A stretch of DNA of 64,000 nucleotides. It comes from Methanobacteriota archaeon (GTDB lineage: Archaea; Thermoplasmatota; Poseidoniia; Poseidoniales; Thalassarchaeaceae). The notes under the pieces are model-generated. The model was given only the letters and a program-made list of their open reading frames with translations. It had not been told where the DNA came from and searched no databases. The position numbers were made by a program, and so were the translations under genes. Each line of letters begins with the position of its first letter. Within the stretch, counting starts at the first letter, position 1. The DNA lies in contig JABIKU010000011.1 in assembly GCA_018654845.1 (NCBI GenBank), forward strand, positions 29,596 through 93,595, given 5' to 3'. Positions 44,043 to 63,384 of this stretch are shown in pieces.

Positions 44043-44046
44043 TTTG

Positions 44047-46276: not shown

Positions 46277-46285
46277 GTTGAGAAA

Positions 46286-46801: not shown

Positions 46802-46847
46802 ATTGTGATAATAATGGAACAAATATCAACTAAAGGAGAGAAGAAAA

Positions 46848-47231: not shown

Positions 47232-47241
47232 GGTGGAAAAA

Positions 47242-47700: not shown

Positions 47701-47715
47701 GACCACAAAGGGCGA

Positions 47716-48003: not shown

Positions 48004-48008
48004 AATAA

Positions 48009-48731
48009 TTGCAGTCAATTTACAAGGATGCAAAATATACTGAAGTCCCATATGAAGAAAAATTAAGCTTATTTAATGAAGTAAAGGGCGACATGAGATA
48101 CTCGACTGAATTGTATGGATGCTATGAATGTGGGATCTGCGTTGCCGCTTGTCCATCTGCACGATTCTATGATTTCAGTCCGAGAGTTTTTGCCCAAACA
48201 ATGGCTAGAGAAGATGTTAATTCATTTTATGAATTACTGAATGATAATGTCTGGGATTGTTCACAATGTTTCTCCTGTACTTGTTGCCCAAGACAGAATA
48301 ACCCTGGTGGAATCATTACGATAATGAGGGAAGTCGCTGTAAACAATGGTTTGCAATCTGCAAAAGATGCTCTACGGGCGTACTCGAGAATAATCTACAA
48401 AGTTATGACTACGGGGACACAAGTCTCCCCTGATATGCTTCAACCAGATTTCTTTCCCGATTGGGGACCAGATGTTCGTGATGTTTCGCTCAACCTTGAT
48501 GTTTGGCGACGTGCAATTCCACCCGAAACATTACACACGGTAGAATTAGCTTGGGATGTTAGTGAAAAAACTCAGCTTGAACTTTACATGATTTGGAAAT
48601 TGACTGGCAATCTTGAAATGATTGAAAATGTTGATGAAGGCCTGTACATGATTCTTGAAGAAGTCATGGAAGAATTACTAGACGAACATGGCTATGATAT
48701 TGATGACTTTGAAAATATATTAGAAGATTAA
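48009..48731 (+). CDS. shdrC1: sHdrC1, 2x[4Fe-4S] subunit of the sulfur-oxidizing Hdr-like complex
   Basis: CYECGICVAACP and CSQCFSCTCCP; PDWGP; TTG start. Confidence 0.82.
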   Translation: MQSIYKDAKYTEVPYEEKLSLFNEVKGDMRYSTELYGCYECGICVAACPSARFYDFSPRVFAQTMAREDVNSFYELLNDNVWDCSQCFSCTCCPRQNNPGGIITIMREVAVNNGLQSAKDALRAYSRIIYKVMTTGTQVSPDMLQPDFFPDWGPDVRDVSLNLDVWRRAIPPETLHTVELAWDVSEKTQLELYMIWKLTGNLEMIENVDEGLYMILEEVMEELLDEHGYDIDDFENILED

Positions 48732-48747
48732 TTATGGAGATAAAAAT

Positions 48748-49962
48748 ATGCAGAGCAAAAATCCAATTCAACTAAATGTTGTCAATCAAAATTTGAAAGT
48801 CAAGAAGGCAGTAGATAGAGAATTTCAGTTACCAAAAAATCCTCCTACCAAAGATTACCGGAAAGAATTATTCGCGCTAGAAGCTGCGGGTGAAATCGAA
48901 ATCATCAGGGTTCCCGAGCCATTTGTTGAAGTCGATACAAAATATGGTAGAAAAAAGAAAATTCCAATTGAACACACTTGGCATCACAAATCATGTGGTC
49001 AATGTGGCCATATCCCAGGATACTCTACATCGATATATTGGCTCAATCGAGAATTTGGATTAGATTATTACGACCCACGAGATCAAACATCATGCACAGC
49101 ATGGAATTATTATGCATCTGCTGCATCAAATCCAGCAGCTCAGGCTGCAATTGCGTGTAGAAATTTCGCACAAGCTAAAATTGATGGCTATTTTCCTCTC
49201 ATCCATTGTGGGACAAGTTATGGGCACTACAAAGAGGTCAGGGCTCAATTATTACACTTCCCAGAATTACGCGAACAGGTTCGAAAAATTCTCGATAGGC
49301 TAGGGCTTCCGTTTGTTTTTCCTGAGGAAATAGTCCATTACTCTGAATGGGTACACGTAATGCGTCATCGAATTGCAGAAAAACAAACCCGAGACTTCTC
49401 CAAAGTTACCGCTACCGTTCACCCCGCTTGCCATTACCATAAATTAATTTCAGAAGATGCAATTTATGACCGAGACCTATACGATGGTCAACGAACAGCG
49501 ATAGTTACAGGAGTAGTCGAAGCATTGGGAGCGAAGGTCGCAGATTATTCAACATTCCACGATTGTTGTGGATTCGGATTTAGGCACATCCTTGTCAGTC
49601 GTGATTTCTCACGATCATTCGCAACAATTCGTAAAATTGAAAGAATGAAAATAGAAGCTGATCCAGATGTGACGATAACGCATGACACTGGTTGTGTCAC
49701 CACGCTCGACAAAAGTCAATTTTCAACTCAAGCCCATAATCGAAAGGTAGGCATTCCTGTAATTTCGGATGCTCAGTTCGCAGCTCTTGCGATGGGTGCT
49801 CATCCATACCTAGTTTGCCAATTACATTGGCATGGAGTGGACAATGTACCATTGCTCGAACTAATGGGCATTGACCATGAAAAAGCATGGAAAGAATTTG
49901 AAGAGGTCGCAGATAAATTACAACAAGACCCGGAAGCATTCCTTACTTGGGAGGATGTTTGA
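48748..49962 (+). CDS. shdrB1: sHdrB1, CCG-domain subunit
   Basis: WHHKSCGQCGHIPGY, QTSCTAWNYY, HCGTSYG, HPACHYHK, DCCGFGFRHI, HDTGCVTTLD. Confidence 0.88.
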   Translation: MQSKNPIQLNVVNQNLKVKKAVDREFQLPKNPPTKDYRKELFALEAAGEIEIIRVPEPFVEVDTKYGRKKKIPIEHTWHHKSCGQCGHIPGYSTSIYWLNREFGLDYYDPRDQTSCTAWNYYASAASNPAAQAAIACRNFAQAKIDGYFPLIHCGTSYGHYKEVRAQLLHFPELREQVRKILDRLGLPFVFPEEIVHYSEWVHVMRHRIAEKQTRDFSKVTATVHPACHYHKLISEDAIYDRDLYDGQRTAIVTGVVEALGAKVADYSTFHDCCGFGFRHILVSRDFSRSFATIRKIERMKIEADPDVTITHDTGCVTTLDKSQFSTQAHNRKVGIPVISDAQFAALAMGAHPYLVCQLHWHGVDNVPLLELMGIDHEKAWKEFEEVADKLQQDPEAFLTWEDV

Positions 49963-51024
49963 ATGAATGGAAAAAATATAATGGTAATTGGCGGAGGTCC
50001 CGCAGGTTTAGAATCAGCAGCAGGTATTTTGGATTTAGGTTATAACCTAATTTTAGTCGAAAAACGTGAATCACTAGGAGGAACTCCAATTTCAGCATCA
50101 TATGCTGCATTGACTCCAGATATGGAAGACACCGAAGTAGCAATGGCTAGAATGGTTAATTCAGTCGTTGGTAAAGAAAATGCCGACATCAGGCTTGGAA
50201 CATCGGTAGTAAGCGTTGAAGGCTCTGCCCCAGACTTCTTGGTAACTCTAGAATCGCCATCTGGTGTCGAAATCGTTAATGTAGGCTCAGTAATTGTAGC
50301 AACCGGATTCAAACACTTTGACCCTGGTCGAGAAACACAAAAATATGGATATTATGAATATGATGATGTCATAACTTTGGTTGATGCTGAAAAAATGCTG
50401 AAATCTGGAGAATTTGTTCGACCATCAACTGGAGAAAAACCAAAGAGAATTTGTTTCATCCAATGTGTTGGTAGTCGAGATAGGCAAATCGGCAATCAAT
50501 GGTGCTCAAAGGTTTGTTGCGGAATTGCAACAAAAGAAGCGATTGAAATCAAACATTTGGTTCCAGATTGCACTGTGATTGTTTTCTATATCGATATGCG
50601 TATGTATGGATTTTGGGAAGACGAATTATACTGGAAAGCCCAAGAAGAATACAAAGTTAATTACATCCGAGGAATTGTTAGTGAAGTTACAAAAAGAGGC
50701 GACACAGTCGTTGTCAAAGGTGAAGATACTACGATGGGAAGACCAATGGAAGTAGAAATGGACATGGTTATCCTATCGGTTGGAATGGAGCCATCCGATG
50801 GAACAATAGCTATGGCAGAGGCTTTCAATTTACCATTAGAATGTCATGGTTGGATTGAGACTATTGGAGGTGCATTGAATACTGTTCAAACTCCTGTTAA
50901 CGGTGTTTTCGTAGCGGGTGCTGCTGCCGGTCCTGCGGATCTTGAAGATTCAATCTCAATGGGCGGAGCTGCTGCGATGAAAGCCTGTGCATTCGTAAGA
51001 CGAATATCATTACCAACCGTTTGA
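49963..51024 (+). CDS. shdrA: sHdrA, short flavoprotein subunit
   Basis: IGGGPAG, IQCVGSRDRQIG..WCSKVCC, FYIDMR; 353 aa, lacking the ferredoxin and MvhD-binding regions of methanogen HdrA. Confidence 0.9.
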   Translation: MNGKNIMVIGGGPAGLESAAGILDLGYNLILVEKRESLGGTPISASYAALTPDMEDTEVAMARMVNSVVGKENADIRLGTSVVSVEGSAPDFLVTLESPSGVEIVNVGSVIVATGFKHFDPGRETQKYGYYEYDDVITLVDAEKMLKSGEFVRPSTGEKPKRICFIQCVGSRDRQIGNQWCSKVCCGIATKEAIEIKHLVPDCTVIVFYIDMRMYGFWEDELYWKAQEEYKVNYIRGIVSEVTKRGDTVVVKGEDTTMGRPMEVEMDMVILSVGMEPSDGTIAMAEAFNLPLECHGWIETIGGALNTVQTPVNGVFVAGAAAGPADLEDSISMGGAAAMKACAFVRRISLPTV

Positions 51025-51037
51025 AGGAGTGATACCA

Positions 51038-51814
51038 ATGTTGTACGATTCATTAACGATTCAAGAAGTGGTTGATTCTGAATCTGCAGCTGAGTTTTTG
51101 AAAGAAGCTACTAAATTAGCAAGCTCAAAAGAATTGGAAGATATTGCTAAAAAATTGTCAACAAAACAACAGTATTTCAAAAAAACTCTTGGGCAAAATA
51201 ATCTAAACACAATCGATGAAAGAGAACTAGAACACCTACTTAGACGTGTGTTTTCTATCAGTCGAAAATCTCCAAAAATTATCCGCATGATCGGTTTTGA
51301 GAATCTGTGTAATTCGATTAATGAATTGTTGTACGGAGAGTATGGAGAATTAGAATCGGGAAAAAGAATTACTATCTTTACAAAATCAGTTTCAAATGTA
51401 TTAGATGAGCGTCGTGCTATTAATCTAGCGAGTGAATTGCTACATTATTCTGATCCAGAGAAGTATGCACTTTGGACGAATTGGATTTGGGATCCAATAA
51501 CCGGCTCCGGGGCTCTTCAAATGGTTCTCCAAGAAGAAATGTGGATTCAAGGAGATACGATATCAGATAGATATGATAGCATTTCTTCTGCATTAAAAAT
51601 AATTGAACACGCGGGTTATTCAAAATCAATTTCAGGAAACGCATCAGGAATGTTGGGGTGTAGCCTATACCTAGCTTGCGTACATGCGGTTTACATGTAC
51701 ACGGTTTTCCGTATGAAAATGTCAAATGAATTCAATCGGATTCTACCCGAACTTCCAGAAATGGTAGAACGTTTACTGGGAGTTCGAAAAATGGAGGTTG
51801 ACCAATATGTCTGA
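51038..51814 (+). CDS. shdrH: sHdrH-like conserved protein
   Basis: Position after shdrA; ASELLHY..PEKYALWTNWIWDP; YMYTVFRMKMSNEFNRILP; GGAGTGA RBS before ATG 51038. Confidence 0.7.
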   Translation: MLYDSLTIQEVVDSESAAEFLKEATKLASSKELEDIAKKLSTKQQYFKKTLGQNNLNTIDERELEHLLRRVFSISRKSPKIIRMIGFENLCNSINELLYGEYGELESGKRITIFTKSVSNVLDERRAINLASELLHYSDPEKYALWTNWIWDPITGSGALQMVLQEEMWIQGDTISDRYDSISSALKIIEHAGYSKSISGNASGMLGCSLYLACVHAVYMYTVFRMKMSNEFNRILPELPEMVERLLGVRKMEVDQYV

Positions 51815-53081
51815 GCACAAGTACCAGAATTACGTAGAAAAAGAAGTGGCAATTATCGATGGAATCGATGTATCTGGAGCTTGGAACAGGATGTGGGAGC
51901 CTCGAGAAACAACAAATTTTGATTTTCAATTTTTAGACAAGGTTGTCGAGTTACCTGGCGGTGTGTCCATGGGGGCATGCTATCAATGCGCACAATGCAT
52001 TGGTGTTTGTCCAGTAGATAATGTGGGCTCATACGGACCACGAAAACTATACCAAAAACTCCAAAATGGTCACGATTTATTTAATTCTCCTGATTTATGG
52101 CTCTGCACAACTTGTAGCAATTGTTTGAGAGTATGTCCAAAAGAAGTTGACATGATGCAAATTATGCCAGCGATTCGAGAGGTAGCAATCCTAGATGGTA
52201 ATGTCCCGGCTGAACTTCAAGAAATGCTGCAAAATGTAGCTGAATATGGAAACCCAATGGGTGAATCGGCTCGAAAGCGAACAAAATGGGCTAAGAAATT
52301 TGAAGAGCCTCTTCGCGATTTATCAAAAGAACCCGGAGAAGTGGATGTACTTTGGTATGTAAGCGATTATTTCAGTTATCATCCACGTGGGAATGATGCT
52401 GCAAAAGCGATGACGAGAGTATTCAACCAACTTGGTATGGATTTCGGGATACTTGGTCGAAAAGAGAGAAGTGATGGGGATTCACAACGACTTTGTGGAG
52501 AAGTTGGTCTGTTTGAAGAATTAGCAGAATATAACCACGCATTATTCGAATCTAACCCACATAACAAACTCGTTGTCAGCGATCCACACGCTTACAATGC
52601 TTTCAAAAATGAATATCCAAAATTGACAGGAGTCGAATACCCAGTCGAACATTATACTCAATATCTGGCTGGAAGAATTGATGAACTCAAATCCATGTTT
52701 ACAAATGAATTTACCAAAAAAGTCACTTTTCATGATCCTTGTTATCTCGGCCGTCATAATAACGAATACGAGGCACCGAGAACTCTTATCGAGGCAATTC
52801 CGGGGATCGATTTCGTCGAAATGTACCGCTGTAAGCAGCAGGGCTACTGTTGTGGAGGCGGTGGCGGTGGCATGTGGTTAGATGGTTTGATGGCCGACCA
52901 TACCTCTGAACGCCTATCTGAGAATAGAGTGAAAGAAGCAGTAGAAGTTGGAGCAGAAGTTCTGGTAGTTTGCTGTCCTTACGAAGTTTCACGGTTTGAA
53001 GATGCTGTGAAATCTACCGGTAATGAAGGAGTGTTAGAAGTTCTCGATATTATCGAAATTATCGACAAATGTATCGCATAA
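51807..53081 (+). CDS. HdrC/HdrB-like fusion (sHdrB3-like): 2x[4Fe-4S] + CCG domains
   Basis: CYQCAQCIGVCP, CTTCSNCLRVCP, HDPCYLGR, CCGGGGG, CCPYE; GGAGG RBS, ATG 51807. Confidence 0.8.
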   Translation: MSEHKYQNYVEKEVAIIDGIDVSGAWNRMWEPRETTNFDFQFLDKVVELPGGVSMGACYQCAQCIGVCPVDNVGSYGPRKLYQKLQNGHDLFNSPDLWLCTTCSNCLRVCPKEVDMMQIMPAIREVAILDGNVPAELQEMLQNVAEYGNPMGESARKRTKWAKKFEEPLRDLSKEPGEVDVLWYVSDYFSYHPRGNDAAKAMTRVFNQLGMDFGILGRKERSDGDSQRLCGEVGLFEELAEYNHALFESNPHNKLVVSDPHAYNAFKNEYPKLTGVEYPVEHYTQYLAGRIDELKSMFTNEFTKKVTFHDPCYLGRHNNEYEAPRTLIEAIPGIDFVEMYRCKQQGYCCGGGGGGMWLDGLMADHTSERLSENRVKEAVEVGAEVLVVCCPYEVSRFEDAVKSTGNEGVLEVLDIIEIIDKCIA

Positions 53082-53097
53082 AGGAGAAGGGAATAAC

Positions 53098-53835
53098 ATG
53101 AAAATAGCAGTATTACTCAAATGGGTACCAGATTTAGTAGAAGAACTTGAAGTCGATGATGATGGTATCGGAATAGACACCGATGACCTGAAATTCAAAC
53201 TGAATGAATTCGATGACCACGCTCTCGAAGAAGCCTTACAAATCGCAAATGATGGAGATGAAGTCGTCGCTATTGCAATTGATGGAGATGGAACGGAGAA
53301 GATGCTTTACACCGCGATTGCAAAAGGAGCGAGTTCAGGAATTCGACTTACAGGTGGCTCGAACTCAAACACTGCAAACTTAGCTGCTGGTTTCGCTACA
53401 GCATTAGATGGTGGAAATTACGACTTGATTCTTACAGGGGTCCAATCAGTCGATGATTTAGATGGGCAATTAGGCCCAATTCTTGCAGCAAATATGGGAC
53501 TTCCTTGTGTATCTGTAGTTAGTTCGTTGAATGTTTCCGGCGGTGTAGCTACAGTCACTAAAGAATATTCAGGTGGAATCGTCGCTGAATTTGAAGTAGA
53601 TCTCCCCGCTGTTCTCGGGATTCAGGCTGCTCGTGAAACTCCACGTTATGCTCCGGTCAGTAAAATACGTCAGGTGCAACAATCAACTGATTTGGCTGAG
53701 AAATCAGTCTCAGGATCATCAACCTCTGGAACAATTATCACAGCAATGTCAGAACCAGAGACTGGCGGTGGGGCGAAAATGCTGGATGATGTTGAAGATT
53801 TAATTGAAATTCTCAAAGGACTGGGGGTTTCTTGA
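53098..53835 (+). CDS. etfB: Electron transfer flavoprotein beta subunit
   Basis: KWVPD, NEFDDHALEEAL, GVQSVD, NETPRY-like RETPRY. Confidence 0.9.
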   Translation: MKIAVLLKWVPDLVEELEVDDDGIGIDTDDLKFKLNEFDDHALEEALQIANDGDEVVAIAIDGDGTEKMLYTAIAKGASSGIRLTGGSNSNTANLAAGFATALDGGNYDLILTGVQSVDDLDGQLGPILAANMGLPCVSVVSSLNVSGGVATVTKEYSGGIVAEFEVDLPAVLGIQAARETPRYAPVSKIRQVQQSTDLAEKSVSGSSTSGTIITAMSEPETGGGAKMLDDVEDLIEILKGLGVS

Positions 53836-54765
53836 ATGGCTGGAATTATGGTTATTTGTGAGCATCTCGCAGGAGAATTTAGCGATATCACATTCGAAAT
53901 GCTCGATGTTGCAAACAAAATTGGAGGCGACATTACTGCTGTTACTTTTGGGTCGATGAAGGAGAAATCCGGAGAATTAGGTATTGCTAACAACGTAATT
54001 GATGCCGGAGGAGATACTGAGTATAACCCGGAATCGTATGCATCTGGAGCGAAAGCGGCTGTTGAATCAAATTCACCTAGCATTATTCTTGTCGCTTCAA
54101 CATCGATGGGATATGACATAGGTAACCCTCTCGCTGTAAATTTAGGAATTCCATTGGCATCATATTGCACAGGAGTTTCTTCTGACGGCACGAATCATGA
54201 GTTTACTAGTTCACTATACGGCGGCAAAATGAGTGTTACTTCAACCGCCGCCGGACCAGCGATTGCTCTCATGCTCGCCGGAGCAGGTGATGCTGATGCT
54301 GGTAGAGTGAGTGGTTCTCCTTCTTTGAGTCAGGTAAGTGGAGAAAGTTTAGACAGAGTTCGATTTAAGCAACTAATAGAGCCTGATGCTGGGGATGTTG
54401 ATATTACTCAATCAGAGATAATTATTGCGATAGGACGAGGAATTGGTGGAAAAGATGACATCGAAATCGCCGAAGAACTCGCCGAAGTGATAGATGCAGA
54501 CATTGCATGCTCACGACCTTTAGTTGATGCTGGCTGGTTACCTAAATCTCGACAAGTTGGGAAATCTGGAATGAAAGTTAAACCGAAATTATACATTGCT
54601 CTAGGAATTTCTGGCGCTCCGGAACATATCGAAGGCATGAAAGATTCAACGACGATTATCGCAATCAATAGCGATGAAAATGCTCCAATTTTCGATGTGG
54701 CTCATTACGGAATGGCAGAAGATCTTTTCGACGTTGTTGAAGAATTAATTGATGAATTAGAGTGA
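53836..54765 (+). CDS. etfA: Electron transfer flavoprotein alpha subunit
   Basis: GRGIG, SRPLVDAGW, QVGKSG, YIALGISGAPEH, AINSDENAPIF. Confidence 0.93.
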   Translation: MAGIMVICEHLAGEFSDITFEMLDVANKIGGDITAVTFGSMKEKSGELGIANNVIDAGGDTEYNPESYASGAKAAVESNSPSIILVASTSMGYDIGNPLAVNLGIPLASYCTGVSSDGTNHEFTSSLYGGKMSVTSTAAGPAIALMLAGAGDADAGRVSGSPSLSQVSGESLDRVRFKQLIEPDAGDVDITQSEIIIAIGRGIGGKDDIEIAEELAEVIDADIACSRPLVDAGWLPKSRQVGKSGMKVKPKLYIALGISGAPEHIEGMKDSTTIIAINSDENAPIFDVAHYGMAEDLFDVVEELIDELE

Positions 54766-54784
54766 TGATTTTTTATCGTATCTA

Positions 54785-56842
54785 GTGGTGAGAATAATGT
54801 TTAGCGAACAAGAAAGAATGGTATTTATTGGATTGGTTGTGATTTGTGGAGCACTAGCTTGGCCTGGATTTTACAATATGTTCAAAATCATTCGAAAGGG
54901 AGGGGAAGTCAATCGTTTTGATAATATTATCAAACGCTTCCTCACTGCTACTATCGATGTACTATTACAAAAACCGATTTTCAAAACTAGACCTTTTGTA
55001 AGTATTTTGCACGCATTCATTTTCTTTGGGTTTTCATTTTATTTACTTGTAAATGTTAGTGATTTACTCGAGGCATTTGTCGAAGGATGGACAACTATCG
55101 ACCGTGGTCCAATATTTGGAACTTTCAATTTACTTGCTGACCTATTCAGTGTATTAGTTTTGGTCGGTATGATTTCGATGCTCTATAGAAGATTTGTAGT
55201 GAAGCCAAAAGCATTCGAGTTCAATGACAATGTATTACTCCATCCGAAAGTTGCGAAAGGTTCAATCAAAAAAGATTCTCTTTTCGTTGGAATATTCATA
55301 CTCTTGCACGTCGGCTCAAGATGGGTTGGAACTGCAATTAGAATGGCAGAGGAGGGGCATACGAATGCTTGGCTACCAACCGCTAGCCTACTCGTCCCAT
55401 TATTCTCAGATATGAGCCCTGAATCGCTTGAACAGGCTTTCCACATTACTTGGTGGATAGCGATGGGTTTGATTGTGATGTTCATCCCATATTTCCCGCG
55501 CTCAAAACACATTCACTTGATGATCGCTCCCATAAATCTAGCACTCGGCAGAAATACGCCAGTAGGTGCTCTAGACCCTGTCATAGACTATTCATCTCCC
55601 GGAGCGAGTGGAATCCTCGAACTCCCCTGGCCTCAATTGCTCGATCCTTACGCTTGCATAATGTGCACTCGCTGTCATGAAGTGTGTCCCGCACATGAGA
55701 GTGGAACCTCACTGAGTCCATCCGCGCTCGAAATCAATAAACGATATTTGATGAATGAAAGTGGAAGTTCACTCGCTGCAGGCGAAGATATTCAATTACT
55801 AGATTCAGCGATTAGTAGCGATGCGGTCTGGTCTTGTACAACCTGCAATGCCTGTGTTTCAATTTGCCCGGTAGGCAATGAGCCGATGCAAGATATCATT
55901 CAGATGCGACGGAGCATGGTGTTCGACTCAAATATGCCCGACGAACTAGCTGATACTCTTCGTTCCCTTGATGAACAAGGAAACTCATTTGGTGAATCAA
56001 ACCGAAAACGTAGTCGTTGGACAAAACCACTTAATATCGATATCAAAGATGCGAGTAAAGAAGCAGTAGACATCCTTTGGTTTGTTGGTGATTTCGCATC
56101 ATTCAATCAATCTTGTACCGATACCACCCGCAAGGTTGCAGAAGTATTAACTGCGGCTGGTGTTGATTTTGGTATCATTAAGAAAGGTGAGAAAAGTGCT
56201 GGAAATGATGTCCGTAGAGTCGGTGAAGAAGGGTTATTTGAATCGTTGGCAGAACAAAATATCGAGAAATTAGCTGGCTGTGAATTCAACAGAATTATGA
56301 CTACAGATCCGCATACATTCAATGCATTGAAGAATGAATATCCAGCATTGGGTGGAGAATATGAAGTAGTTCATTACTCTACTCTTTTACTCGAAATGAT
56401 GGAGTCAGGAATTATTAATCTCGATGAAACACTTTCTGGTAATGCAACATATCACGATCCGTGTTATCTCGGCCGTTATAATGGAATTTATGAGGCTCCT
56501 CGAGGAGTAATAGAGAGATGTGGATTATCGATTGTGGAAATGCCCCGTAATCGAGATAATTCATTATGTTGTGGCGCAGGTGGCGGACAAATTTGGATGA
56601 ATGATCACGATGATATGACCCAGCGCCCTTCTGAAATGCGTATCGAAGAGGCACTATCCGTTGGTGTTTCTCGTTTCCTAGTCGCTTGTCCTAAAGATAT
56701 GACTATGTATTCTGATGCAGTCAAGACAAGCGGCCACGAAGGCGAAATAATCGTCGAGGACATTATTGACCTAGTTTACTCGGCTATGAATATGCAAGTT
56801 GAGAAAATGCTGCCATCCAACGTGGATGGGGTTCTAACTTGA
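54785..56842 (+). CDS. Membrane-bound Fe-S oxidoreductase (FadF/Emo-like; TM + 2x[4Fe-4S] + 2 CCG), probable ETF:quinone link
   Basis: N-terminal TMs with His (LHAFIFFGF, FHIT, KHIH); CIMCTRCHEVCP, CTTCNACVSICP; HDPCYLGRYN, CCGAGGG, ACPKD. Start GTG 54785 or ATG 54797. Confidence 0.8.
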   Translation: MVRIMFSEQERMVFIGLVVICGALAWPGFYNMFKIIRKGGEVNRFDNIIKRFLTATIDVLLQKPIFKTRPFVSILHAFIFFGFSFYLLVNVSDLLEAFVEGWTTIDRGPIFGTFNLLADLFSVLVLVGMISMLYRRFVVKPKAFEFNDNVLLHPKVAKGSIKKDSLFVGIFILLHVGSRWVGTAIRMAEEGHTNAWLPTASLLVPLFSDMSPESLEQAFHITWWIAMGLIVMFIPYFPRSKHIHLMIAPINLALGRNTPVGALDPVIDYSSPGASGILELPWPQLLDPYACIMCTRCHEVCPAHESGTSLSPSALEINKRYLMNESGSSLAAGEDIQLLDSAISSDAVWSCTTCNACVSICPVGNEPMQDIIQMRRSMVFDSNMPDELADTLRSLDEQGNSFGESNRKRSRWTKPLNIDIKDASKEAVDILWFVGDFASFNQSCTDTTRKVAEVLTAAGVDFGIIKKGEKSAGNDVRRVGEEGLFESLAEQNIEKLAGCEFNRIMTTDPHTFNALKNEYPALGGEYEVVHYSTLLLEMMESGIINLDETLSGNATYHDPCYLGRYNGIYEAPRGVIERCGLSIVEMPRNRDNSLCCGAGGGQIWMNDHDDMTQRPSEMRIEEALSVGVSRFLVACPKDMTMYSDAVKTSGHEGEIIVEDIIDLVYSAMNMQVEKMLPSNVDGVLT

Positions 56843-56864
56843 ATGAGTTGAGGATGCCGATATA

Positions 56865-58292
56865 ATGGTCAATTACGGTTTCGTCATCGACAATCGCAAG
56901 TGTATTGGATGCCATGCATGTACTGTCGCATGTAAGTCTGAACACGATGTCCCTATCGGAGTAAACCGCACTCACGTAAAGTACATCGAAACTGGAACTT
57001 ATCCAGATGTCACTCGTGAATTTAGTGTCCATCGCTGTAATCATTGCGAAGATTCACCATGTACTACAATTTGTCCAACTAGTGCACTATTCACAAGAGA
57101 TGATGGCATCGTTGACTTCGATGATGACCGTTGTATCGGATGCAAATCTTGTATGCAAGCCTGTCCTTACGATGCTCTCTATATCGACCCTAACAAAGGC
57201 ACGGCGGCTAAGTGCAATTATTGTGCTCATCGCATCGAACATTCATACGAGCCAGCTTGTGTCATTGTCTGTCCGACCGAAGCGATTGTTTCTGGAGATC
57301 TTGATGATGAAAATTCTTCAATCTCAGGATATCTGCGTGATCATGTAACAACGGTTCGTAAACCTGAATCGGGTGCAAATCCCAATGTATACTATGTTGA
57401 GACAAGTGAAGAAATGTTAGACCCTAAAGCAACTGAACGCTCCGGCGAATACCTGTGGACCGACCAGGCAGCAGGAGTTGGCCATTATGCAAAATATGCA
57501 GATCAACGTCTCGGTGCAGCAGATACAAATTCAATGATTGTACAATTAGCTCTCGAGAAAAAGGCACGAGCTGCGGCTGGAAGAGACCGAGCAATCATTC
57601 GAGATGTCATGGAGCGCTTGGACGAGCAAGCAGGGAAGCCGAAACGCTCCTATGACCAACCAGCGAAAGGCATCCTTTGGGACTGGGACGTTGCAGGATA
57701 TCTCGTCACCAAATCTACAGCTGCTGGTTTGTACATTCTGATGATGCTCGCGATGATTACTGGGAAAATCAATTTCGGCAGCGAAATCCTCATCGCGTTG
57801 GTAGCTAGCATAGGATTACTAGGATTAACCGGATTACTCCTCATTAATGATTTAGACAAACCAATGCGGTTCGTCTATGTTCTCTTGCGACCTAATTTTT
57901 CTTCCTGGCTCGTAAAGGGAGGATACACACTCGGTGCATTCGCCAACATCATGGTCGTGCATTTAGGGATATTTTTCCTCGATATGCCTGAAATTTGGCA
58001 TATGTGGTTAGCAATTCTTGGAATCCCTCTAGCTTGGTTGACTGGAAATTACACTGGTTGGTTATTCAAGCAAGCAAAGGGACGTGAAAAATGGGCGAAC
58101 CGTACCAATCAAGAAATCATTATCACAGGTTCAATCGAAATGTTGGTTTTCGGTGGAGCTGCCGCGCTTCTATTGCTCTTCTCAGGAATTCTGCAATATC
58201 TTGCTCTATCCGGAGCCGTACTAATTTTCACCTTCGGATACAAGCACGTGCTACACGATTTGCGTAGTGCTCAAGTGGAGACACTACATTGA
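56865..58292 (+). CDS. Fusion of DmsB/PsrB-type 4x[4Fe-4S] subunit and NrfD/PsrC-type membrane anchor
   Basis: CIGCHACTVAC, CNHCEDSPCTTICP, CIGCKSCMQACP, KCNYC...PACVIVCP; then WDWDVAGYL, DLDKPMRF, SSWLVKG. Confidence 0.87.
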   Translation: MVNYGFVIDNRKCIGCHACTVACKSEHDVPIGVNRTHVKYIETGTYPDVTREFSVHRCNHCEDSPCTTICPTSALFTRDDGIVDFDDDRCIGCKSCMQACPYDALYIDPNKGTAAKCNYCAHRIEHSYEPACVIVCPTEAIVSGDLDDENSSISGYLRDHVTTVRKPESGANPNVYYVETSEEMLDPKATERSGEYLWTDQAAGVGHYAKYADQRLGAADTNSMIVQLALEKKARAAAGRDRAIIRDVMERLDEQAGKPKRSYDQPAKGILWDWDVAGYLVTKSTAAGLYILMMLAMITGKINFGSEILIALVASIGLLGLTGLLLINDLDKPMRFVYVLLRPNFSSWLVKGGYTLGAFANIMVVHLGIFFLDMPEIWHMWLAILGIPLAWLTGNYTGWLFKQAKGREKWANRTNQEIIITGSIEMLVFGGAAALLLLFSGILQYLALSGAVLIFTFGYKHVLHDLRSAQVETLH

Positions 58293-58302
58293 GGTGAATG
58301 AT

Positions 58303-61032
58303 ATGGCAAAAACAATTATCGAAGGTATCGCACAAAAATTGCGAATCATACCAAACCTCGACCGAAATGTCACTGAAGGAAATTTAGAACCTCTCCGAAA
58401 ATTCCCCTCATCTAATGAATGGCACAATCATATCGAATTAGATGCAAATTCTTGGCCGGTACGAATTGAGAGGAAATATTCCTTAGTGCCAACAACTTGT
58501 TTCAATTGCGAATCCGCATGTGGCCTGCTCGCATATGTAGACAAAGGAACCAGGCAAGTATCCAAATTCGAAGGAAACCCACACCACCCTGGTAGTCGCG
58601 GGAGAAATTGCGCTAAAGGACCGGCTACAATTAATCAAATTCAGGATACTGAGCGTATTTTGTACCCAATGCGAAGAGTCGGAGGGCGTGGTGAAGGTGG
58701 TTGGGAGAGAATATCTTGGGATGAGGCGTTGGATGAAATTTCAACAAAAATCCGCGCATCACTAAAGACTGGCGCAGTCGACAAAGTCGTTTATCACGTA
58801 GGTAGACCAGGGCATGAAGGATACATGAATCGCGTCCTCAAAGCCTGGGGTGTAGATGGCCATAATTCACACACAAATATCTGTTCAGCTGGGGCGCGAA
58901 CTGGATATGCGCTTTGGCATAAACACGATAGACCAAGTCCCGATCATACAAATGCAAAGGTCATACTTCTAACATCTTCTCACCTTGAAACCGGCCATTA
59001 TTTCAATCCTCATGCTCAACGAATTCTAGAAGGAATGATGGATGGAGCAAAACTCATCGTCATCGACCCTAGACTCTCGAATACGGCGGCGATGGCAGAT
59101 TATTGGCTACCAACCTGGCCGGGAAGTGAGCCAGCATTATTCCTCGCGTGGGCAAAAATGATTATTGAGCGCGGCCTATTTGACCGCGAATTCATGGAAA
59201 CTCAGGTTAATTGGGATGCTTGGATGAAAGCTGTCCACCCCGATGAGCCTTGCAATTTCGATCGATATATCGAATTACTAACTGAAGAATACGCTGAATA
59301 TACACCGGAATTTGCTGCAGAAGAATGCAAGATCCCGGTCGAACAAGTTATCGAAGCTGGAGAGGTGGTTGCAAGTGCAGGAACACAATTGTGTACCCAC
59401 GTTTGGCGCAGTGCTTCTATCGGAAACTTAGGGGGATGGCAAGTAAGCCGTACACTTCATTTCCTCAATGTCCTGACAGGATCGGTAGGAACAGAAGGGG
59501 GAACCTCACCTAATTCATGGTCTAAATTCAAACCAGATCTCTTCGATAATCCACCTGACCCAGATGGCTGGAACGAACTCCATTTCCCACCTGAATACAC
59601 TATGTCTCACTTCGAAATGAGTCACATTCTACCTCATCTAATCAAGGATGGAAGAGGCTCAATGGATGTTTACTTCACACGTGTATTCAATCCGGTTTGG
59701 ACATTTCCTGATGGATTTTCATGGATGGAAATGTTGCAGAATAAGGAATCGGTTGGCTGCCATGTCGCAATGACTCCAACCTGGAATGAAACTGCATTCT
59801 TTGCTGATTATGTTCTACCTATGGGGCATTCAGCCGAGCGACATGACGTCAATTCTTACGCGACGTCCTCGGGTAAGTGGGTAGCATTCCGCCAACCTGT
59901 TCTGCGTGAATATGCACGCAGAGAGGGACGGGAAGTCGAATTTACTCACGAAGTAAATCCAGGGGAAGTTTGGGAAGAAGATGAATTCTGGAACGAGTTA
60001 TCGTGGCGAATCGATGATGGCACGATGGGGATACGTGAGCACTTCATGAGCCCATACCGTGAAGGAGAAAAAATCACTATCGATGAATATTATCAGTATC
60101 TTTTCGAGCGTGTCCCGGGTCTTCCTGAAGCCGCAGAAAAAGAAGGTACTGACGCCCTAGGATACATGAGGAAACATGGAGCATTCCTCATTGAAGAATC
60201 GACATACAAAAAGTATGAGGAAGAAGGATGGCCTACCCCTTCAGGTAAGCAAGAATTCTATTCAGAAACAATGATTGAATTCGGCTATCCTGAACACTCA
60301 ATACCTCATTACCGACAAAAATCTCATGTTCACCCAGAAAATCTTGTAGGCGAAAACGAATATTGTCTACTGCCTAACTTCCGACTTCCACAACATATCC
60401 ACTCCCGCTCAGCCAATGCAAAATGGTTAGTCGAAATCGCTCATAGAAATCCAATTTGGATTCATCCGAAAGATGCAAGAAAACTGGGCGTTGCCGAAGG
60501 GGATTTACTAAAAATCGAAACTGAAATCGGTTGGTTCGTCGACAAGGTATGGGTCACTGAAGGTATCAAACCTGGCGTAGTTGGTTGCAGCCACCACATA
60601 GGCCGGTGGCGGCGAAATCAAGATGCTGGTAATCGCTTCCTAACAAATACTGTCAACATCGAAGATAACGGTGACGGCAAGATGCGAATGAGGACTGTCA
60701 GCGGCATCGAACCGTGGAAGTCGGATGACCCCGATACCAACAGAATTTGGTGGAGGGACGGCGGGGTTCACCAGAACATAACTCACGCCGTACAACCAGA
60801 TCCAATCTCTGGAGCCCATTGCTGGCTCCAGAAGGTCAAATTATCCCTCCCGGGAGAAGGCGAAGAATACGGAGACATCGAGGTAGATCAACAAAAGTCG
60901 TTTGATTATTATAAACGGTGGAATAACTGGGCAAAGGATAGAGAAACTCATCCGAGAGGTGAGCGACGTCCACTATGGATGAAAAGACCATTACCGCCAA
61001 AGAAAGAACACTGGTATATCAAAGAGGAATAA
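58303..61032 (+). CDS. DMSO-reductase-family molybdopterin oxidoreductase catalytic subunit, no Tat signal (Soe/Sre/Psr-like)
   Basis: TCFNCESACG...GRNCAKG (FS0), ISWDEAL, HTNICSA, IDPRLS, C-terminal HSRSANAKWL..IWIHPKDA; GAGGTGA RBS, ATG 58303. Confidence 0.88.
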   Translation: MAKTIIEGIAQKLRIIPNLDRNVTEGNLEPLRKFPSSNEWHNHIELDANSWPVRIERKYSLVPTTCFNCESACGLLAYVDKGTRQVSKFEGNPHHPGSRGRNCAKGPATINQIQDTERILYPMRRVGGRGEGGWERISWDEALDEISTKIRASLKTGAVDKVVYHVGRPGHEGYMNRVLKAWGVDGHNSHTNICSAGARTGYALWHKHDRPSPDHTNAKVILLTSSHLETGHYFNPHAQRILEGMMDGAKLIVIDPRLSNTAAMADYWLPTWPGSEPALFLAWAKMIIERGLFDREFMETQVNWDAWMKAVHPDEPCNFDRYIELLTEEYAEYTPEFAAEECKIPVEQVIEAGEVVASAGTQLCTHVWRSASIGNLGGWQVSRTLHFLNVLTGSVGTEGGTSPNSWSKFKPDLFDNPPDPDGWNELHFPPEYTMSHFEMSHILPHLIKDGRGSMDVYFTRVFNPVWTFPDGFSWMEMLQNKESVGCHVAMTPTWNETAFFADYVLPMGHSAERHDVNSYATSSGKWVAFRQPVLREYARREGREVEFTHEVNPGEVWEEDEFWNELSWRIDDGTMGIREHFMSPYREGEKITIDEYYQYLFERVPGLPEAAEKEGTDALGYMRKHGAFLIEESTYKKYEEEGWPTPSGKQEFYSETMIEFGYPEHSIPHYRQKSHVHPENLVGENEYCLLPNFRLPQHIHSRSANAKWLVEIAHRNPIWIHPKDARKLGVAEGDLLKIETEIGWFVDKVWVTEGIKPGVVGCSHHIGRWRRNQDAGNRFLTNTVNIEDNGDGKMRMRTVSGIEPWKSDDPDTNRIWWRDGGVHQNITHAVQPDPISGAHCWLQKVKLSLPGEGEEYGDIEVDQQKSFDYYKRWNNWAKDRETHPRGERRPLWMKRPLPPKKEHWYIKEE

Positions 61033-61035
61033 ATT

Positions 61036-61863
61036 ATGGAATTTGAATTGATAATCGCGATCGTTTTGATCTTGATGACTGCATTTATGTTTGCACCGCT
61101 CGGACTAGGTGGTGGAGTTCTCTATGTGCCAATATTCCTATTCTTACTCGATTGGGAAATCCACCTTGCACTCGTCTCGTCCCTCCTACTCGTTTGGATG
61201 GTTTCACTGGGAAGTAAAGCAGCCCATAGCAAAGGAGGTTATGCAGTAAAGGAAGTGGGTGACAAAGGAACCGTCGCAGCACTGATTGGAGTGGTTGTTG
61301 GGACGATATTAGCTGCTTTCATTATCGGTGAATTGGGCGATGTTCCAATTAAAATTCTCGCATCGATTCTTCTAGTATGGGTATTATACTCAACAATTAA
61401 AAAATTGACTAAAGAATTGAACGGCAACGGCAATGGTGATACAGAAACTCCAGTCGTTGAAGGAGAAATTTTGAACGCCTATCGGGCGGGTTGCTTTGGA
61501 GGAGGCGCAGCTTCAGGATTTTTAGGAATCGGTGGTGGTGCAATTTTCGTTACAATTCACAGCTCAATTCTTGGATTAAAGCAACACCAAGCAGCTGGAA
61601 CTTCATTCCTCATCGAGAGTTGGATAGTACCTACAGGAATCATAACTCACCTCATAATCGATGGTACAGGACCGGAAATTTTGCAGATATTTGGGATCTA
61701 CATCTTACCTATTTGCGGAATAGTTGCAGCAACATCTTGGCTCGGTGCTCAAGTTGCAATCAAAATGCTTCCACAAAGAGTGTTGACCTATCCATTCATC
61801 ATAGCAGTAGCTGCGAGTTTGATTAATTATCTGATGAATATCAAAGAGATGCTAGGTTACTAA
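61036..61863 (+). CDS. TauE/SafE-family sulfite/sulfur-compound exporter
   Basis: Two repeated halves: GLGGGVLYVP and GFLGIGGGAIFV...AAGTS; about 8 TM. Confidence 0.8.
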   Translation: MEFELIIAIVLILMTAFMFAPLGLGGGVLYVPIFLFLLDWEIHLALVSSLLLVWMVSLGSKAAHSKGGYAVKEVGDKGTVAALIGVVVGTILAAFIIGELGDVPIKILASILLVWVLYSTIKKLTKELNGNGNGDTETPVVEGEILNAYRAGCFGGGAASGFLGIGGGAIFVTIHSSILGLKQHQAAGTSFLIESWIVPTGIITHLIIDGTGPEILQIFGIYILPICGIVAATSWLGAQVAIKMLPQRVLTYPFIIAVAASLINYLMNIKEMLGY

Positions 61864-62148: not shown

Positions 62149-63384
62149 TTAAAATGCTTCAATAATCATAGCAATTCCCTGCCCGCCACCAATGCAGGCA
62201 GTTGCGATACCATAGCGTCCTCCGCTGCGTTTTAGCTCGAGAGCAAGGGTAAGAACAAGGCGGCTACCGGTAGCAGCTAATGGGTGTCCAAGACCTACCG
62301 CTCCGCCGTTAACATTGACAATCCCTGAAGAAATTCCTAATTCTTTCATACACGCGACCGCTTGTCCGGCGAATGCCTCATTGATTTCCCAACGATCGAT
62401 TTCTTCAACAGACATTCCTGCATTTTCAAGAGCCTTTAGGCTGCTTGGAACAGGTCCATATGCCATAATAGAGGGGTCGAGGCCAACTATACCCCAGGAA
62501 ATGATGCGAGCTAATGGCTCATCTCCATCCGCTTCTGCTCTGCTAGCTGATTTGATGACAACCGCAGCTGCCCCATCCACAACCCCAGATGCGTTTCCGG
62601 CTGTAACAAGCGAATCAGGGCCGAAATGAGTTCTTAATCCACCCAATGATTCTTCTGTTGTTCCGCGAACAAAGTGATCTTCTTCAGTTGCAGTAACAAG
62701 TCCATCTGCTGTTTCGACATTGACAATTTCTTCTGCCCATACGCCATTATCAACGCTCTTCTCTGTTCGAGAGTGGGACAAGACTGCGAAAGCGTCGGTC
62801 TCTTCTCTAGAAACTCCCACCTGAGCACAAAGTTTGTCACTGGTTTGAGCCATAAAGGAGTTACAGGTTTCATCTAGAAGATTTGTGAATAGGTAATCTT
62901 CCATATTTTTTGATAATACATCCCCTTCCCGTGGAGGGCGACCAAGTTTGTATGTATCTCGCATTCCACGTAATACATGAGGTGCTTGACTGAGATTTTC
63001 CATGCCTCCCGAAACGACGACTTCGGCTTCACCGAGCATAATCATTTGAGCACCAGATATGATTGACTGAACGCCACTTCCACATAGCCGATTAAGCGTC
63101 AACATCGGAACTTTTTGTGGAATTCCTGCATTCAAACCCGCATGACGAGCACCAAAAATCGCTTGATTGCTCGTCTGTAGTGCATGACCCATTACGACAT
63201 GATCGACAGATTCGGGAGAGGTTCCCGTTTTTTCTAATGCGCCCTTTATTGCAATAGTACCTAGTTGTTCAGCACTGACAGAAGCTAATCTACCACCGAC
63301 TTCGCCATCTCCGCGTTTGCCTCCAAGCCACTCACAAAATGGAGTTCTTGCACCACCGATTATGACTACGTCTTCGTTGCTCAT
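62149..63384 (-). CDS. Thiolase (acetyl-CoA C-acyltransferase)
   Basis: TLNRLCGSG, GGMENLS, VTAGNASGVVDGAA, NEAFA, GHPLAATG, ACIGGGQG. Confidence 0.95.
   Translation of the reverse strand: MSNEDVVIIGGARTPFCEWLGGKRGDGEVGGRLASVSAEQLGTIAIKGALEKTGTSPESVDHVVMGHALQTSNQAIFGARHAGLNAGIPQKVPMLTLNRLCGSGVQSIISGAQMIMLGEAEVVVSGGMENLSQAPHVLRGMRDTYKLGRPPREGDVLSKNMEDYLFTNLLDETCNSFMAQTSDKLCAQVGVSREETDAFAVLSHSRTEKSVDNGVWAEEIVNVETADGLVTATEEDHFVRGTTEESLGGLRTHFGPDSLVTAGNASGVVDGAAAVVIKSASRAEADGDEPLARIISWGIVGLDPSIMAYGPVPSSLKALENAGMSVEEIDRWEINEAFAGQAVACMKELGISSGIVNVNGGAVGLGHPLAATGSRLVLTLALELKRSGGRYGIATACIGGGQGIAMIIEAF

What the first reader, a model, noticed from the sequence alone, without database searches (positions are those of the whole stretch)
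56865..61863. Tat-less molybdoenzyme with fused FeS-NrfD partner and TauE: candidate cytoplasmic sulfite/polysulfide module
Seen: the catalytic subunit N-terminus (MAKTIIEGIAQKLRII) has no twin-Arg motif; it has an FS0 motif CFNCESAC and a likely Mo ligand HTNICSA (Cys not followed by His, so unlike formate dehydrogenase). The B and C subunits are fused and precede A; tauE follows 3 bp after the stop. Established: sHdr releases sulfite in the cytoplasm, and SoeABC-type cytoplasm-facing Mo enzymes and TauE exporters dispose of it. Inference: this may be a distinct clade performing the SoeABC role, or a cytoplasmic polysulfide/tetrathionate reductase.
Basis: partly seen in the sequence, partly recalled or inferred. 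Interest (0 to 1): 0.66.

Follow-up and report, generated by a model that had tools for sequence, protein, structure and literature searches.

The report
Inward-facing molybdoenzyme behind swapped sulfur cassette
A Marine Group II archaeon carries a two-gene, inward-facing membrane molybdenum enzyme that most likely oxidises sulfite to sulfate; this enzyme type has been described but never tested, and here close relatives have swapped the gene module that makes the sulfite.

Summary
There is a fused 4x[4Fe-4S]/NrfD protein (56865-58292) and a Tat-less Mo-bisPGD catalytic subunit (ATG 58303-61032) with the FS0 motif CFNCESAC. Its Cys in HTNICSA aligns with the Mo ligand Cys173 of PsrA. TauE starts 3 bp after the stop, and Moco genes are present.

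The organism is a Poseidoniales (Marine Group II) archaeon. The enzyme is not a new architecture. The fused, Tat-less "psrBCA" layout was published for Marine Group A and MGII fosmids (PMC3906813). It matches the untested "PSRLC3" of green sulfur bacteria, which is inferred to be a sulfite oxidase.

The new evidence is comparative:
- The BC-A pair occurs in 108 of 301 Poseidoniales genomes.
- A rhodanese-MBL persulfide dioxygenase sits directly upstream in 24 genomes.
- The sHdr genes occur in only 2 genomes.
- In same-genus genomes (BC-A 95-97% identical), the 1.2-kb dioxygenase gene occupies exactly the site where this genome has a 10.06-kb dsrE-lbpA-shdr-etf-emo cassette.

Two alternative sulfite producers therefore feed one constant enzyme plus an anion exporter. 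The best reading is a cytoplasmic sulfite:quinone oxidoreductase (confidence about 0.65). Orthology to SoeA could not be tested. The MGII anchor has 6 helices, not 8.

The parts
56865..58292 (+). Fused electron-transfer and anchor subunit (475 aa). Residues 1-180 form a four-cluster PsrB/TtrB-like ferredoxin with no signal peptide. Residues 181-270 are a linker. Residues 271-475 are a six-helix NrfD/PsrC-type membrane domain.
   Evidence: Pfam and NCBIfam hits. PsrB 2vpw_B 7.8e-47. The AF2 model has a membrane part with pLDDT about 90 and six TM helices: 274-298, 306-329, 348-371, 377-402, 415-438 and 442-471. Foldseek matches PsrC 2vpw_C at E 5.7e-4, TMt 0.53. Alignment A2 shows that MGII proteins lack TM7-8 of the bacterial homologues.
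58303..61032 (+). Tat-less Mo/W-bisPGD catalytic subunit (909 aa). It has FS0 cysteines C66/C69/C73/C103 and a Mo-ligand Cys in HTNICSA.
   Evidence: Pfam domains. PsrA and ArrA alignments. Start codon and N-termini. Invariant columns.
61036..61863 (+). TauE/SafE-family anion exporter, 3 bp after the catalytic subunit.
   Evidence: PF01925 2.3e-22. The same position holds TauE in other MGII genomes. Bacterial loci carry SulP or a Na/sulfate-symporter-family gene next to the pair instead.
46802..56858 (+). 10.06-kb cassette absent from same-genus genomes: dsrE (46848-47231), lbpA (47233-47700), shdrC1 (48009-48731), shdrB1 (48748-49962), shdrA (49963-51024), shdrH (51029-51814), shdrB3 (51798-53081), etfB (53098-53835), etfA (53836-54765), emo (54785-56842).
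   Evidence: Pfam and NCBIfam hits. blastn breakpoints against G149 and G133. The same cassette precedes BC-A in G217.
45705..46801 (+). Shared leader genes of the operon: arsR-family regulator (45705-46049), tusA (46046-46276) and dsrE, DrsE_2 type (46286-46801).
   Evidence: The same three genes precede the dioxygenase-BC-A unit in MGII and Marinimicrobia.
45255..45629 (-). Divergent single-domain rhodanese.
   Evidence: PF00581 1.5e-10. It is also present in L104.
43161..45219 (+). Conserved left flank: pterin-binding enzyme and TraB/PrgY. These mark the syntenic site.
   Evidence: 88.9% DNA identity to G149 and 89.4% to G133.
62149..63384 (-). Conserved right flank: thiolase.
   Evidence: Synteny.

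Best explanation
**What it is.** The two genes encode a membrane-bound, cytoplasm-facing complex iron-sulfur molybdoenzyme of the fused psrBC-psrA (PSRLC3) type. It most likely works as a sulfite:quinone oxidoreductase.

**Proposed pathway.**
1. Sulfane sulfur is carried by rhodanese, TusA and DsrE to the type II sHdr-LbpA system, which oxidises it to sulfite in the cytoplasm. In sister genomes a rhodanese-MBL persulfide dioxygenase takes this role.
2. The Cys-ligated Mo-bisPGD site of the 909-aa subunit oxidises sulfite to sulfate.
3. Two electrons pass through FS0 and the four [4Fe-4S] clusters of the fused ferredoxin domain to a quinone site. That site lies on the cytoplasmic face of the six-helix NrfD domain.
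4. TauE exports the oxyanion.

**Shown here.** The domain make-up, the absence of export signals, the fusion, the six-helix anchor, the conserved gene neighbourhoods and the cassette swap.

**Inferred.** The substrate, the direction of electron flow, the position of the quinone site and what TauE carries.
For: 1. **Topology.** The A subunit and 32 relatives have no Tat motif. The ferredoxin domain begins at residue 1 without a signal and is fused to TM1, so both soluble parts are cytoplasmic.
2. **Same-genus swap.** G149 and G133 (A 95-96% and BC 95-97% protein identity; flanks 86-89% DNA identity) carry a 1.2-kb rhodanese-MBL gene exactly where this genome has window 46802-56858. That gene matches persulfide dioxygenases (ETHE1 4chl 3.5e-13, 4ysb 2.3e-15, BpPRF 5ve3). 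Persulfide dioxygenase and sHdr share one product, sulfite (PMC12345210, PMC11094781).
3. **Order-wide association.**
   - A occurs in 108 of 301 genomes.
   - The dioxygenase occurs in 25. Of these, 24 also have A, and the one exception lies at a contig end.
   - In 22 of 22 same-contig cases the dioxygenase lies 1.43-1.51 kb from A, which is the length of the BC gene.
   - sHdrB1 occurs in 2 genomes, both next to BC-A.
   - Fisher p is 6e-12, not corrected for phylogeny.
4. **Bacterial and haloarchaeal contexts**.
   - Saprospiraceae and other Bacteroidota: PDO-rhodanese, SulP, TauE, YeeE-type Sulf_transp, rhodaneses.
   - Marinimicrobia: arsR-tusA-dsrE-PDO-BC-A followed by a Na/sulfate-symporter-family gene.
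   - Rhodococcus jostii RHA1 pRHL3: dsrE-tusA-BC-A with MBL-fold genes nearby.
   - Natrinema: rhodanese-TauE-BC-A-Mrp-MobA.
   - Myxococcota: PDO-rhodanese and Sulf_transp genes followed by BC-A.
5. **No other sulfite oxidiser.** This genome (86% complete) has no SUOX/SorA-type domain and no AprA. In Proteobacteria shdr genes are always accompanied by soeABC (PMC6397845).
6. **Hosts.** To my knowledge the cultured hosts (R. jostii, Thermomicrobium roseum, Natrinema, Flavilitoribacter) are aerobic heterotrophs. A cytoplasmic respiratory reductase would make little sense in them.
Against: - No member of the fused family has been purified or knocked out, so the substrate rests on gene context alone.
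- About 82 of the 108 Poseidoniales genomes with BC-A have neither the dioxygenase nor sHdr next to it. There the pair sits between TraB and the thiolase, sometimes without TauE. The enzyme is therefore not strictly tied to these sulfite producers.
- The PDO-rhodanese fusions found beside the enzyme can also lead to thiosulfate, which forms from sulfite and zerovalent sulfur (PMC12345210). A thiosulfate-related substrate is therefore not excluded.
- Orthology to the characterised SoeA could not be checked.
- The AF2 model of the ferredoxin domain is poor (pLDDT below 50), so the docking geometry and quinone site are inferred from PsrBC.
- Published readings differ: polysulfide reductase (PMC3906813) and DMSO respiration (Martin-Cuadrado 2008, as cited in PMC6741140).
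Confidence: 0.65

Rival explanations
1. It is a cytoplasmic polysulfide or elemental-sulfur reductase, or a reversible sulfide:quinone enzyme, as proposed for the Marine Group A psrBCA operon. It would use quinol to reduce sulfane sulfur delivered by TusA, DsrE and rhodanese.
For: The best solved-structure matches are PsrA (3e-36), PsrB (7.8e-47) and PsrC (Foldseek E 5.7e-4). Sulfur-carrier genes lie next to the enzyme. This is the published reading in PMC3906813.
Against: - PsrA identity is low, and the PhsA model scores 189 bits against a cut-off of 694.
- To my knowledge the cultured hosts are aerobes.
- The product H2S needs no exporter, yet TauE, SulP or a Na/sulfate-family transporter is the usual neighbour.
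- The upstream partners, PDO and sHdr, oxidise sulfane sulfur. A reductase beside them would run a futile cycle.
Confidence: 0.1
2. It oxidises a sulfur species other than free sulfite. Candidates are thiosulfate, which forms from sulfite and zerovalent sulfur, or a carrier-bound sulfonate or thiosulfonate on TusA or DsrE. Electrons would still pass to quinone.
For: The enzyme is constantly associated with tusA-dsrE and with rhodanese-fused dioxygenases. Thiosulfate forms from sulfite and zerovalent sulfur (PMC12345210).
Against: - Many MGII loci have BC-A with no carrier genes at all.
- G133 has PDO-BC-A without tusA or dsrE.
- To my knowledge no DMSOR-family enzyme is known to act on protein-bound sulfur.
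Confidence: 0.12
3. It is a reductase for a non-sulfur oxyanion or oxide, such as DMSO, nitrate, arsenate or selenate, and lies near sulfur genes by chance.
For: An earlier reading of the MGII cluster (molybdopterin oxidoreductase, 4Fe-4S protein and TraB) was DMSO respiration (Martin-Cuadrado 2008, as cited in PMC6741140). General DMSOR-family hits.
Against: - All curated models score far below their cut-offs: DmsA 130 against 1600, ArrA 120 against 1600, NarG 27, NapA 48.
- The sulfur context recurs in at least 8 phyla and both domains.
- TraB is only a syntenic flank gene.
Confidence: 0.04

Closest known systems
PSRLC3 (polysulfide-reductase-like complex 3) of green sulfur bacteria; the fused 'psrBCA' of Marine Group A and MGII fosmids (Frigaard & Bryant 2008; Wright et al. 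2014, PMC3906813)
   Same: Gene order BC then A, fusion of the FeS and NrfD subunits, and a catalytic subunit without a Tat signal. The distribution is shared (Marinimicrobia, MGII, haloarchaea, Chloroflexota). PSRLC3 is inferred to be a sulfite oxidase but has never been tested (PMC9324843, PMC6338057).
   Different: - The MGII anchor has six helices instead of eight.
- Here the enzyme follows a type II sHdr cassette rather than Dsr genes.
- No green sulfur bacterial sequence was available, so the link rests on the published trees and on shared architecture.
SoeABC sulfite:quinone oxidoreductase (Allochromatium vinosum, Ruegeria pomeroyi, Aquifex aeolicus)
   Same: It is described as a cytoplasm-facing Mo enzyme with an FeS subunit and an NrfD-type anchor that passes electrons to quinone. 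It accompanies cytoplasmic sulfite producers (rDsr, sHdr) in every proteobacterial genome surveyed in PMC6397845. It works the way this enzyme is proposed to work.
   Different: - To my knowledge SoeABC has three separate genes in A-B-C order and an eight-helix SoeC.
- Here the order is BC-A, the two subunits are fused, and the anchor has six helices.
- Sequence orthology is untested. Earlier notes of this scan disagree on whether the family is related to SoeA.
PsrABC polysulfide reductase of Thermus thermophilus (PDB 2vpw)
   Same: It is the best solved-structure match for all three modules. The Mo ligand is Cys and the anchor is an NrfD fold.
   Different: To my knowledge PsrABC is Tat-exported and faces the periplasm, with separate subunits and an eight-helix PsrC. 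It works reductively.
Tat-exported B-C-A-TorD molybdoenzymes of unknown substrate (P0247, P0302, P0265)
   Same: They are the nearest sequence relatives outside the fused group. Together they form a clade with SH-aLRT 100, apart from Psr/Phs/Dms-like proteins. They share the B-C-A gene order and the motif before FS0.
   Different: They have a twin-arginine leader, separate B and C genes, a TorD-type chaperone and a polyferredoxin. They face outward.

Membership tests
Complex iron-sulfur molybdoenzyme (DMSO reductase / MopB superfamily) | Molybdopterin and Molydop_binding domains with an N-terminal FS0 Cys motif | tested here: met
   PF00384 3.3e-18, PF01568 7.9e-17, PF04879 3.6e-11. C66, C69, C73 and C103 are invariant or nearly so.
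Complex iron-sulfur molybdoenzyme (DMSO reductase / MopB superfamily) | Protein ligand to Mo at the conserved position | tested here: met
   The Cys of HTNICSA aligns with PsrA Cys173 and the ArrA Cys column.
PSRLC3-type / fused psrBCA | FeS and NrfD subunits fused in one polypeptide, encoded upstream of A | tested here: met
   One ORF, 56865-58292. The fusion is conserved in MGII and in at least 8 bacterial and archaeal phyla.
PSRLC3-type / fused psrBCA | Catalytic subunit without a Tat signal | tested here: met
   No RR motif in 32 family N-termini.
PSRLC3-type / fused psrBCA | Sequence clusters with the green sulfur bacterial PSRLC3 catalytic subunit | not testable with these tools
   No GSB sequence could be fetched. 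PMC3906813 reports that MGII fosmid proteins are closest to Marine Group A PsrA and similar to GSB homologues.
SoeABC | Cytoplasm-facing catalytic subunit with no signal peptide on any subunit | tested here: met
SoeABC | Three separate subunits encoded in soeA-soeB-soeC order | tested here: not met
   Here B and C are fused and the order is BC-A.
SoeABC | Orthology of the catalytic subunit to A. vinosum SoeA (D3RNN8) | not testable with these tools
   NCBIfam holds no Soe model. No named SoeA turned up in the plasmid, representative, cluster or genome searches.
SoeABC | Sulfite-dependent quinone reduction | not testable with these tools
   This needs biochemistry.
PsrABC / PhsABC | Tat-exported catalytic subunit that reaches the curated family score | tested here: not met
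   No Tat motif. PhsA NF012032 scores 189 bits against a cut-off of 694.
TtrABC | Reaches the TtrA equivalog score | tested here: not met
   NF011567 scores 105 bits against a cut-off of 1750. TtrB is the best hit for the ferredoxin domain, but at 175 against 416.
Formate dehydrogenase | Fdh-alpha model score | tested here: not met
   TIGR01591 scores 139 against 666. The genome's true Fdh-alpha is on contig C15 and scores 775 bits.
Type II sHdr system (upstream partner) | shdrC1B1AHB3-etfAB-emo in one syntenic cluster with lbpA and dsrE | tested here: met
   Domain content and order. This matches the definition in PMC11094781.

The most novel reading that the evidence does not exclude
The fused BC-A enzymes are an independent invention of cytoplasmic sulfite:quinone oxidation, not orthologues of SoeABC. 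On this reading they derive from a Tat-exported B-C-A-TorD enzyme that was turned inward. Marine plankton would treat the enzyme as a fixed back end, in front of which interchangeable sulfane-to-sulfite front ends are swapped as cassettes: an O2-dependent dioxygenase or the energy-conserving sHdr. The MGII form would then work with a minimal six-helix anchor.
Probability: 0.4. Interest if true: 0.65.

Novelty: new member of a known kind. Interest (0 to 1): 0.5.

Why it matters
Marine Group II archaea, SAR406/Marinimicrobia and Saprospiraceae are abundant in the ocean, and all three carry this enzyme. Surveys that look only for SoeABC, SorAB, SUOX or AprAB may therefore miss a major sulfite sink. 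One sediment study found abundant persulfide dioxygenase genes but "no SoeABC" (PMC12345210).

The same-genus swap of a dioxygenase for sHdr in front of an unchanged enzyme is a natural experiment. It narrows the likely substrate to the product the two share. It also shows that energy-conserving sulfur oxidation is a rare, cassette-borne trait in Poseidoniales (2 of 301 species genomes).

Cultured carriers make the long-standing PSRLC3 hypothesis directly testable: R. jostii RHA1, Thermomicrobium roseum, Natrinema and Flavilitoribacter nigricans.

Tried and rejected
**Attempts to obtain a bona fide SoeA for a direct phylogeny all failed.**
- NCBIfam has no Soe model.
- tblastn against plasmids found only family members and unrelated enzymes.
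- The representative search returned unnamed proteins, and cluster look-ups gave no names.
- The genome search cannot be centred on a named genome.
- The single genome-contig scan returned only the 80 closest relatives.
- Paper supplements held no sequences.
- Gregersen et al. 2011 is not in the library.

**Candidates checked and set aside.**
- The homologues in Azoarcus KH32C and Sulfurovum mangrovi were checked as possible SoeABC. They are B-C-A-TorD operons. The Azoarcus one lies next to arsenic-resistance and regulator genes, and the Sulfurovum A gene is frameshifted.
- The Tat-positive relatives were tested as TtrA. They do not reach the model score.

**Limits of other analyses.**
- The AF2 model of the ferredoxin domain came out at low confidence, so only the membrane domain was used.
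Full report
**Observation**

The window comes from a Poseidoniales (Marine Group II) archaeon, as shown by the names of its closest homologues.
- ORF 56865-58292 encodes a 475-aa protein. Its first 180 residues are a signal-less four-cluster ferredoxin of the PsrB/TtrB type, and its last 205 residues are an NrfD domain.
- Ten bases downstream, ATG 58303 follows a GAGGTGA motif and opens a 909-aa Mo-bisPGD subunit with Molybdop_Fe4S4, Molybdopterin and Molydop_binding domains.
- Neither this protein nor 32 relatives has a twin-arginine motif.
- The FS0 cysteines are conserved. The Cys in HTNICSA aligns with the Mo ligand Cys173 of Thermus PsrA and with the ArrA Cys column.
- TauE starts 3 bp after the stop codon.
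- The genome holds moaA, moaB, moaC, moaE, moeA and moeB, a weak moaD hit and a weak MobA-like gene. Its only other molybdopterin enzyme is an NAD-type formate dehydrogenase.

**Surroundings**

Upstream lies a complete type II sHdr locus:
- a divergent rhodanese;
- arsR, tusA and two dsrE genes;
- lbpA, shdrC1B1AHB3, etfBA and emo.

This matches the published definition (PMC11094781). That paper already reports type II sHdr in Thermoplasmatota. Intergenic gaps of 22, 10 and 3 bp link emo, BC, A and tauE.

**The family**

The catalytic subunit scores below every curated equivalog. Its relatives all share the fused BC gene upstream of a Tat-less A gene:

| Group | Identity to this A subunit |
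|---|---|
| Poseidoniales | 80-96% |
| Marinimicrobia | 67-70% |
| Saprospiraceae and other Bacteroidota | 59-62% |
| Planctomycetota | 58-61% |
| KSB1 | 59% |
| Natrinema, Halomarina | 52-54% |
| Thermomicrobium roseum | 53% |
| Rhodococcus jostii RHA1 (pRHL3) | 53% |
| Myxococcota | 41% |

A quick maximum-likelihood tree gave three results:
- The fused proteins, together with three Tat-positive B-C-A-TorD enzymes of unknown substrate, form a clade with SH-aLRT 100. This clade is separate from Psr/Phs/Dms-like proteins.
- The MGII sequences nest inside bacteria, next to Marinimicrobia.
- The Tat-positive sequences interleave with the deepest fused ones, so the direction of the topology change is unresolved.

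**Gene context in bacteria and haloarchaea**

The neighbours are repeatedly genes that make, carry or export oxidised sulfur:
- persulfide dioxygenase-rhodanese fusions;
- single rhodaneses, TusA and DsrE;
- YeeE-type Sulf_transp proteins;
- TauE, SulP or a Na/sulfate-symporter-family protein.

**The cassette swap**

In other MGII genomes the same site, between the pterin-binding/TraB genes and a thiolase, takes one of two forms:
- arsR-tusA-dsrE-(rhodanese-MBL)-BC-A-TauE;
- simply TraB-BC-A(-TauE).

The rhodanese-MBL protein matches solved persulfide dioxygenases: ETHE1, Myxococcus PDO and the BpPRF fusion.

Two genomes of the same genus have A 95-96% and BC 95-97% identical to this one. G149 carries pterin-TraB-arsR-tusA-dsrE-PDO-BC-A-TauE-thiolase. 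G133 carries pterin-TraB-PDO-BC-A-TauE.

blastn places the breakpoints at window 46801/46802 and 56858/56859. The 10.06 kb from the second dsrE to emo replaces the 1.2-kb dioxygenase gene, and the flanks are 86-89% identical.

Across 301 species genomes of the order:
- A is present in 108.
- The dioxygenase is present in 25. Of these, 24 also have A, and in 22 of 22 same-contig cases the dioxygenase lies exactly one BC gene-length from A.
- sHdrB1 is present in 2: this genome and G217, which belongs to another genus and has the same cassette in front of BC-A.

The closest bacterial sHdrB1 proteins are from Marinimicrobia (74-79%) and Chloroherpeton (74%). In those bacteria the cassette ends with a second lbpA and a lipoate ligase, not with BC-A. 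The junction of sHdr with BC-A is therefore an MGII arrangement created at the dioxygenase site.

**Mechanism**

Persulfide dioxygenase and sHdr both turn sulfane sulfur into cytoplasmic sulfite (PMC12345210, PMC11094781). The simplest reading of an unchanged downstream enzyme plus an anion exporter is that the enzyme removes sulfite.

This genome has no SUOX/SorA-type domain and no AprA. In Proteobacteria shdr genes are always accompanied by soeABC (PMC6397845).

I therefore propose a cytoplasmic sulfite:quinone oxidoreductase. Electrons would run from Mo through FS0 and four [4Fe-4S] clusters to a quinone site on the cytoplasmic face of the NrfD domain.

The conserved polar motifs DLDxPxRF..LLRPNxxSW and YTxWLxxQAKGR fall in the predicted cytoplasmic loops after TM2 and TM4. 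This fits a quinone site next to the ferredoxin domain, as in PsrC (inference). Such an enzyme would be electroneutral itself and would conserve energy through the quinone pool (inference). No TorD/NarJ chaperone gene is present.

**The anchor**

Bacterial fused subunits have eight predicted helices. All MGII proteins lack TM7-8 through an internal deletion of about 70 residues, but they keep the C-terminal PQxEPL tail. The AF2 model gives six confident helices (pLDDT about 90) and matches PsrC. With an even number of helices, both termini stay in the cytoplasm.

**What is already known**

- Wright et al. (PMC3906813) described Tat-less PsrA homologues with psrBC fusion and psrBCA order on Marine Group A fosmids. 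They found these closest to MGII fosmid proteins. They listed the same format in green sulfur bacteria, Haladaptatus and Caldilinea, and they read the enzyme as a polysulfide reductase.
- Martin-Cuadrado et al. 2008 read the MGII cluster as DMSO respiration (as cited in PMC6741140).
- The green sulfur bacterial version, PSRLC3, is "inferred to be sulfite oxidase" (PMC9324843; PMC6338057).
- The abstract of Dahl et al. 2013, as quoted in PMC8232776, calls SoeABC genes universally present in purple or green sulfur bacteria.
- Among the listed results of my literature searches, no paper connected soeA with MGII, Marinimicrobia or Saprospiraceae. A sediment survey rich in dioxygenase genes reported no SoeABC.

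The architecture and the sulfite hypothesis are therefore not new. The same-genus cassette swap, the order-wide association and the six-helix anchor are additional evidence.

**Limits**

- I could not obtain a SoeA or a green sulfur bacterial sequence, so orthology to SoeA and direct clustering with PSRLC3 remain untested.
- The Fisher test ignores phylogeny.
- About three quarters of MGII carriers have the enzyme without an adjacent sulfite producer. In those genomes sulfite may come from other sources such as organosulfonates (inference), or the substrate may be broader.
- Transcript data could not be consulted.

**Verdict**

This is a new member of a known but untested kind, with a useful natural experiment attached. 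Confidence in the sulfite:quinone reading is about 0.65.

Noticed in passing
window 45705-46049: The ArsR-family regulator at the head of the operon has two cysteines, C45 in EECTV and C98 in LACLEE. To my knowledge persulfide-sensing SqrR/BigR/sHdrR-type repressors carry a reactive Cys pair at similar positions. The same regulator precedes the dioxygenase version of the operon in G149 (87% identity).
   Followed up: partly
window 47233-47700; L114 12074-13644; L115 20086-21209: Bacterial type II sHdr cassettes (Marinimicrobia, Chloroherpeton) end with a second lbpA and a lipoate-protein ligase. The MGII cassette has one lbpA and no ligase, so lipoylation must rely on genes elsewhere.
   Followed up: partly
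genome contig C15:44794-49077 (L007): The only other molybdopterin enzyme in the genome is an NAD-type formate dehydrogenase alpha subunit (TIGR01591, 775 bits). It has a NuoG-like N-terminus and sits next to a NuoF-like gene.
   Followed up: partly
The genome search sample, genus g1: Only 3 of 14 genomes of the window's own genus carry the BC-A pair, so the whole module is accessory even within the genus. MAG incompleteness (72-92% complete) may account for part of this.
   Followed up: no
L003 10001-12856 (same contig as L045): A bacterial MAG has a 69%-identical catalytic subunit with no fused BC gene next to it. The upstream 350-aa ORF has no Pfam hit.
   Followed up: no
window 58303-58370 and family N-termini: The first 20 residues are conserved across the family: M-x-K/R-S/T-x-I-E-x-x-A-E-x-x-x-I-I-P. 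The positively charged K/R-S start recalls the n-region of the Tat leaders of the exported relatives. This could be a remnant leader used for cofactor insertion, although the genome has no TorD/NarJ gene.
   Followed up: partly
L019 7001-10169 (Sulfurovum mangrovi plasmid): The 36%-identical homologue in a B-C-A-TorD operon is split into two frames. This is either a pseudogene or a sequencing error.
   Followed up: no
L016 and L017 (R. jostii RHA1 pRHL3; Natrinema plasmid): In actinobacterial and haloarchaeal loci an Mrp/NBP35-family ATPase gene directly follows the catalytic subunit. In Natrinema a MobA gene comes next. These may be dedicated FeS and cofactor maturation factors, and they are absent from the MGII locus.
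   Followed up: no
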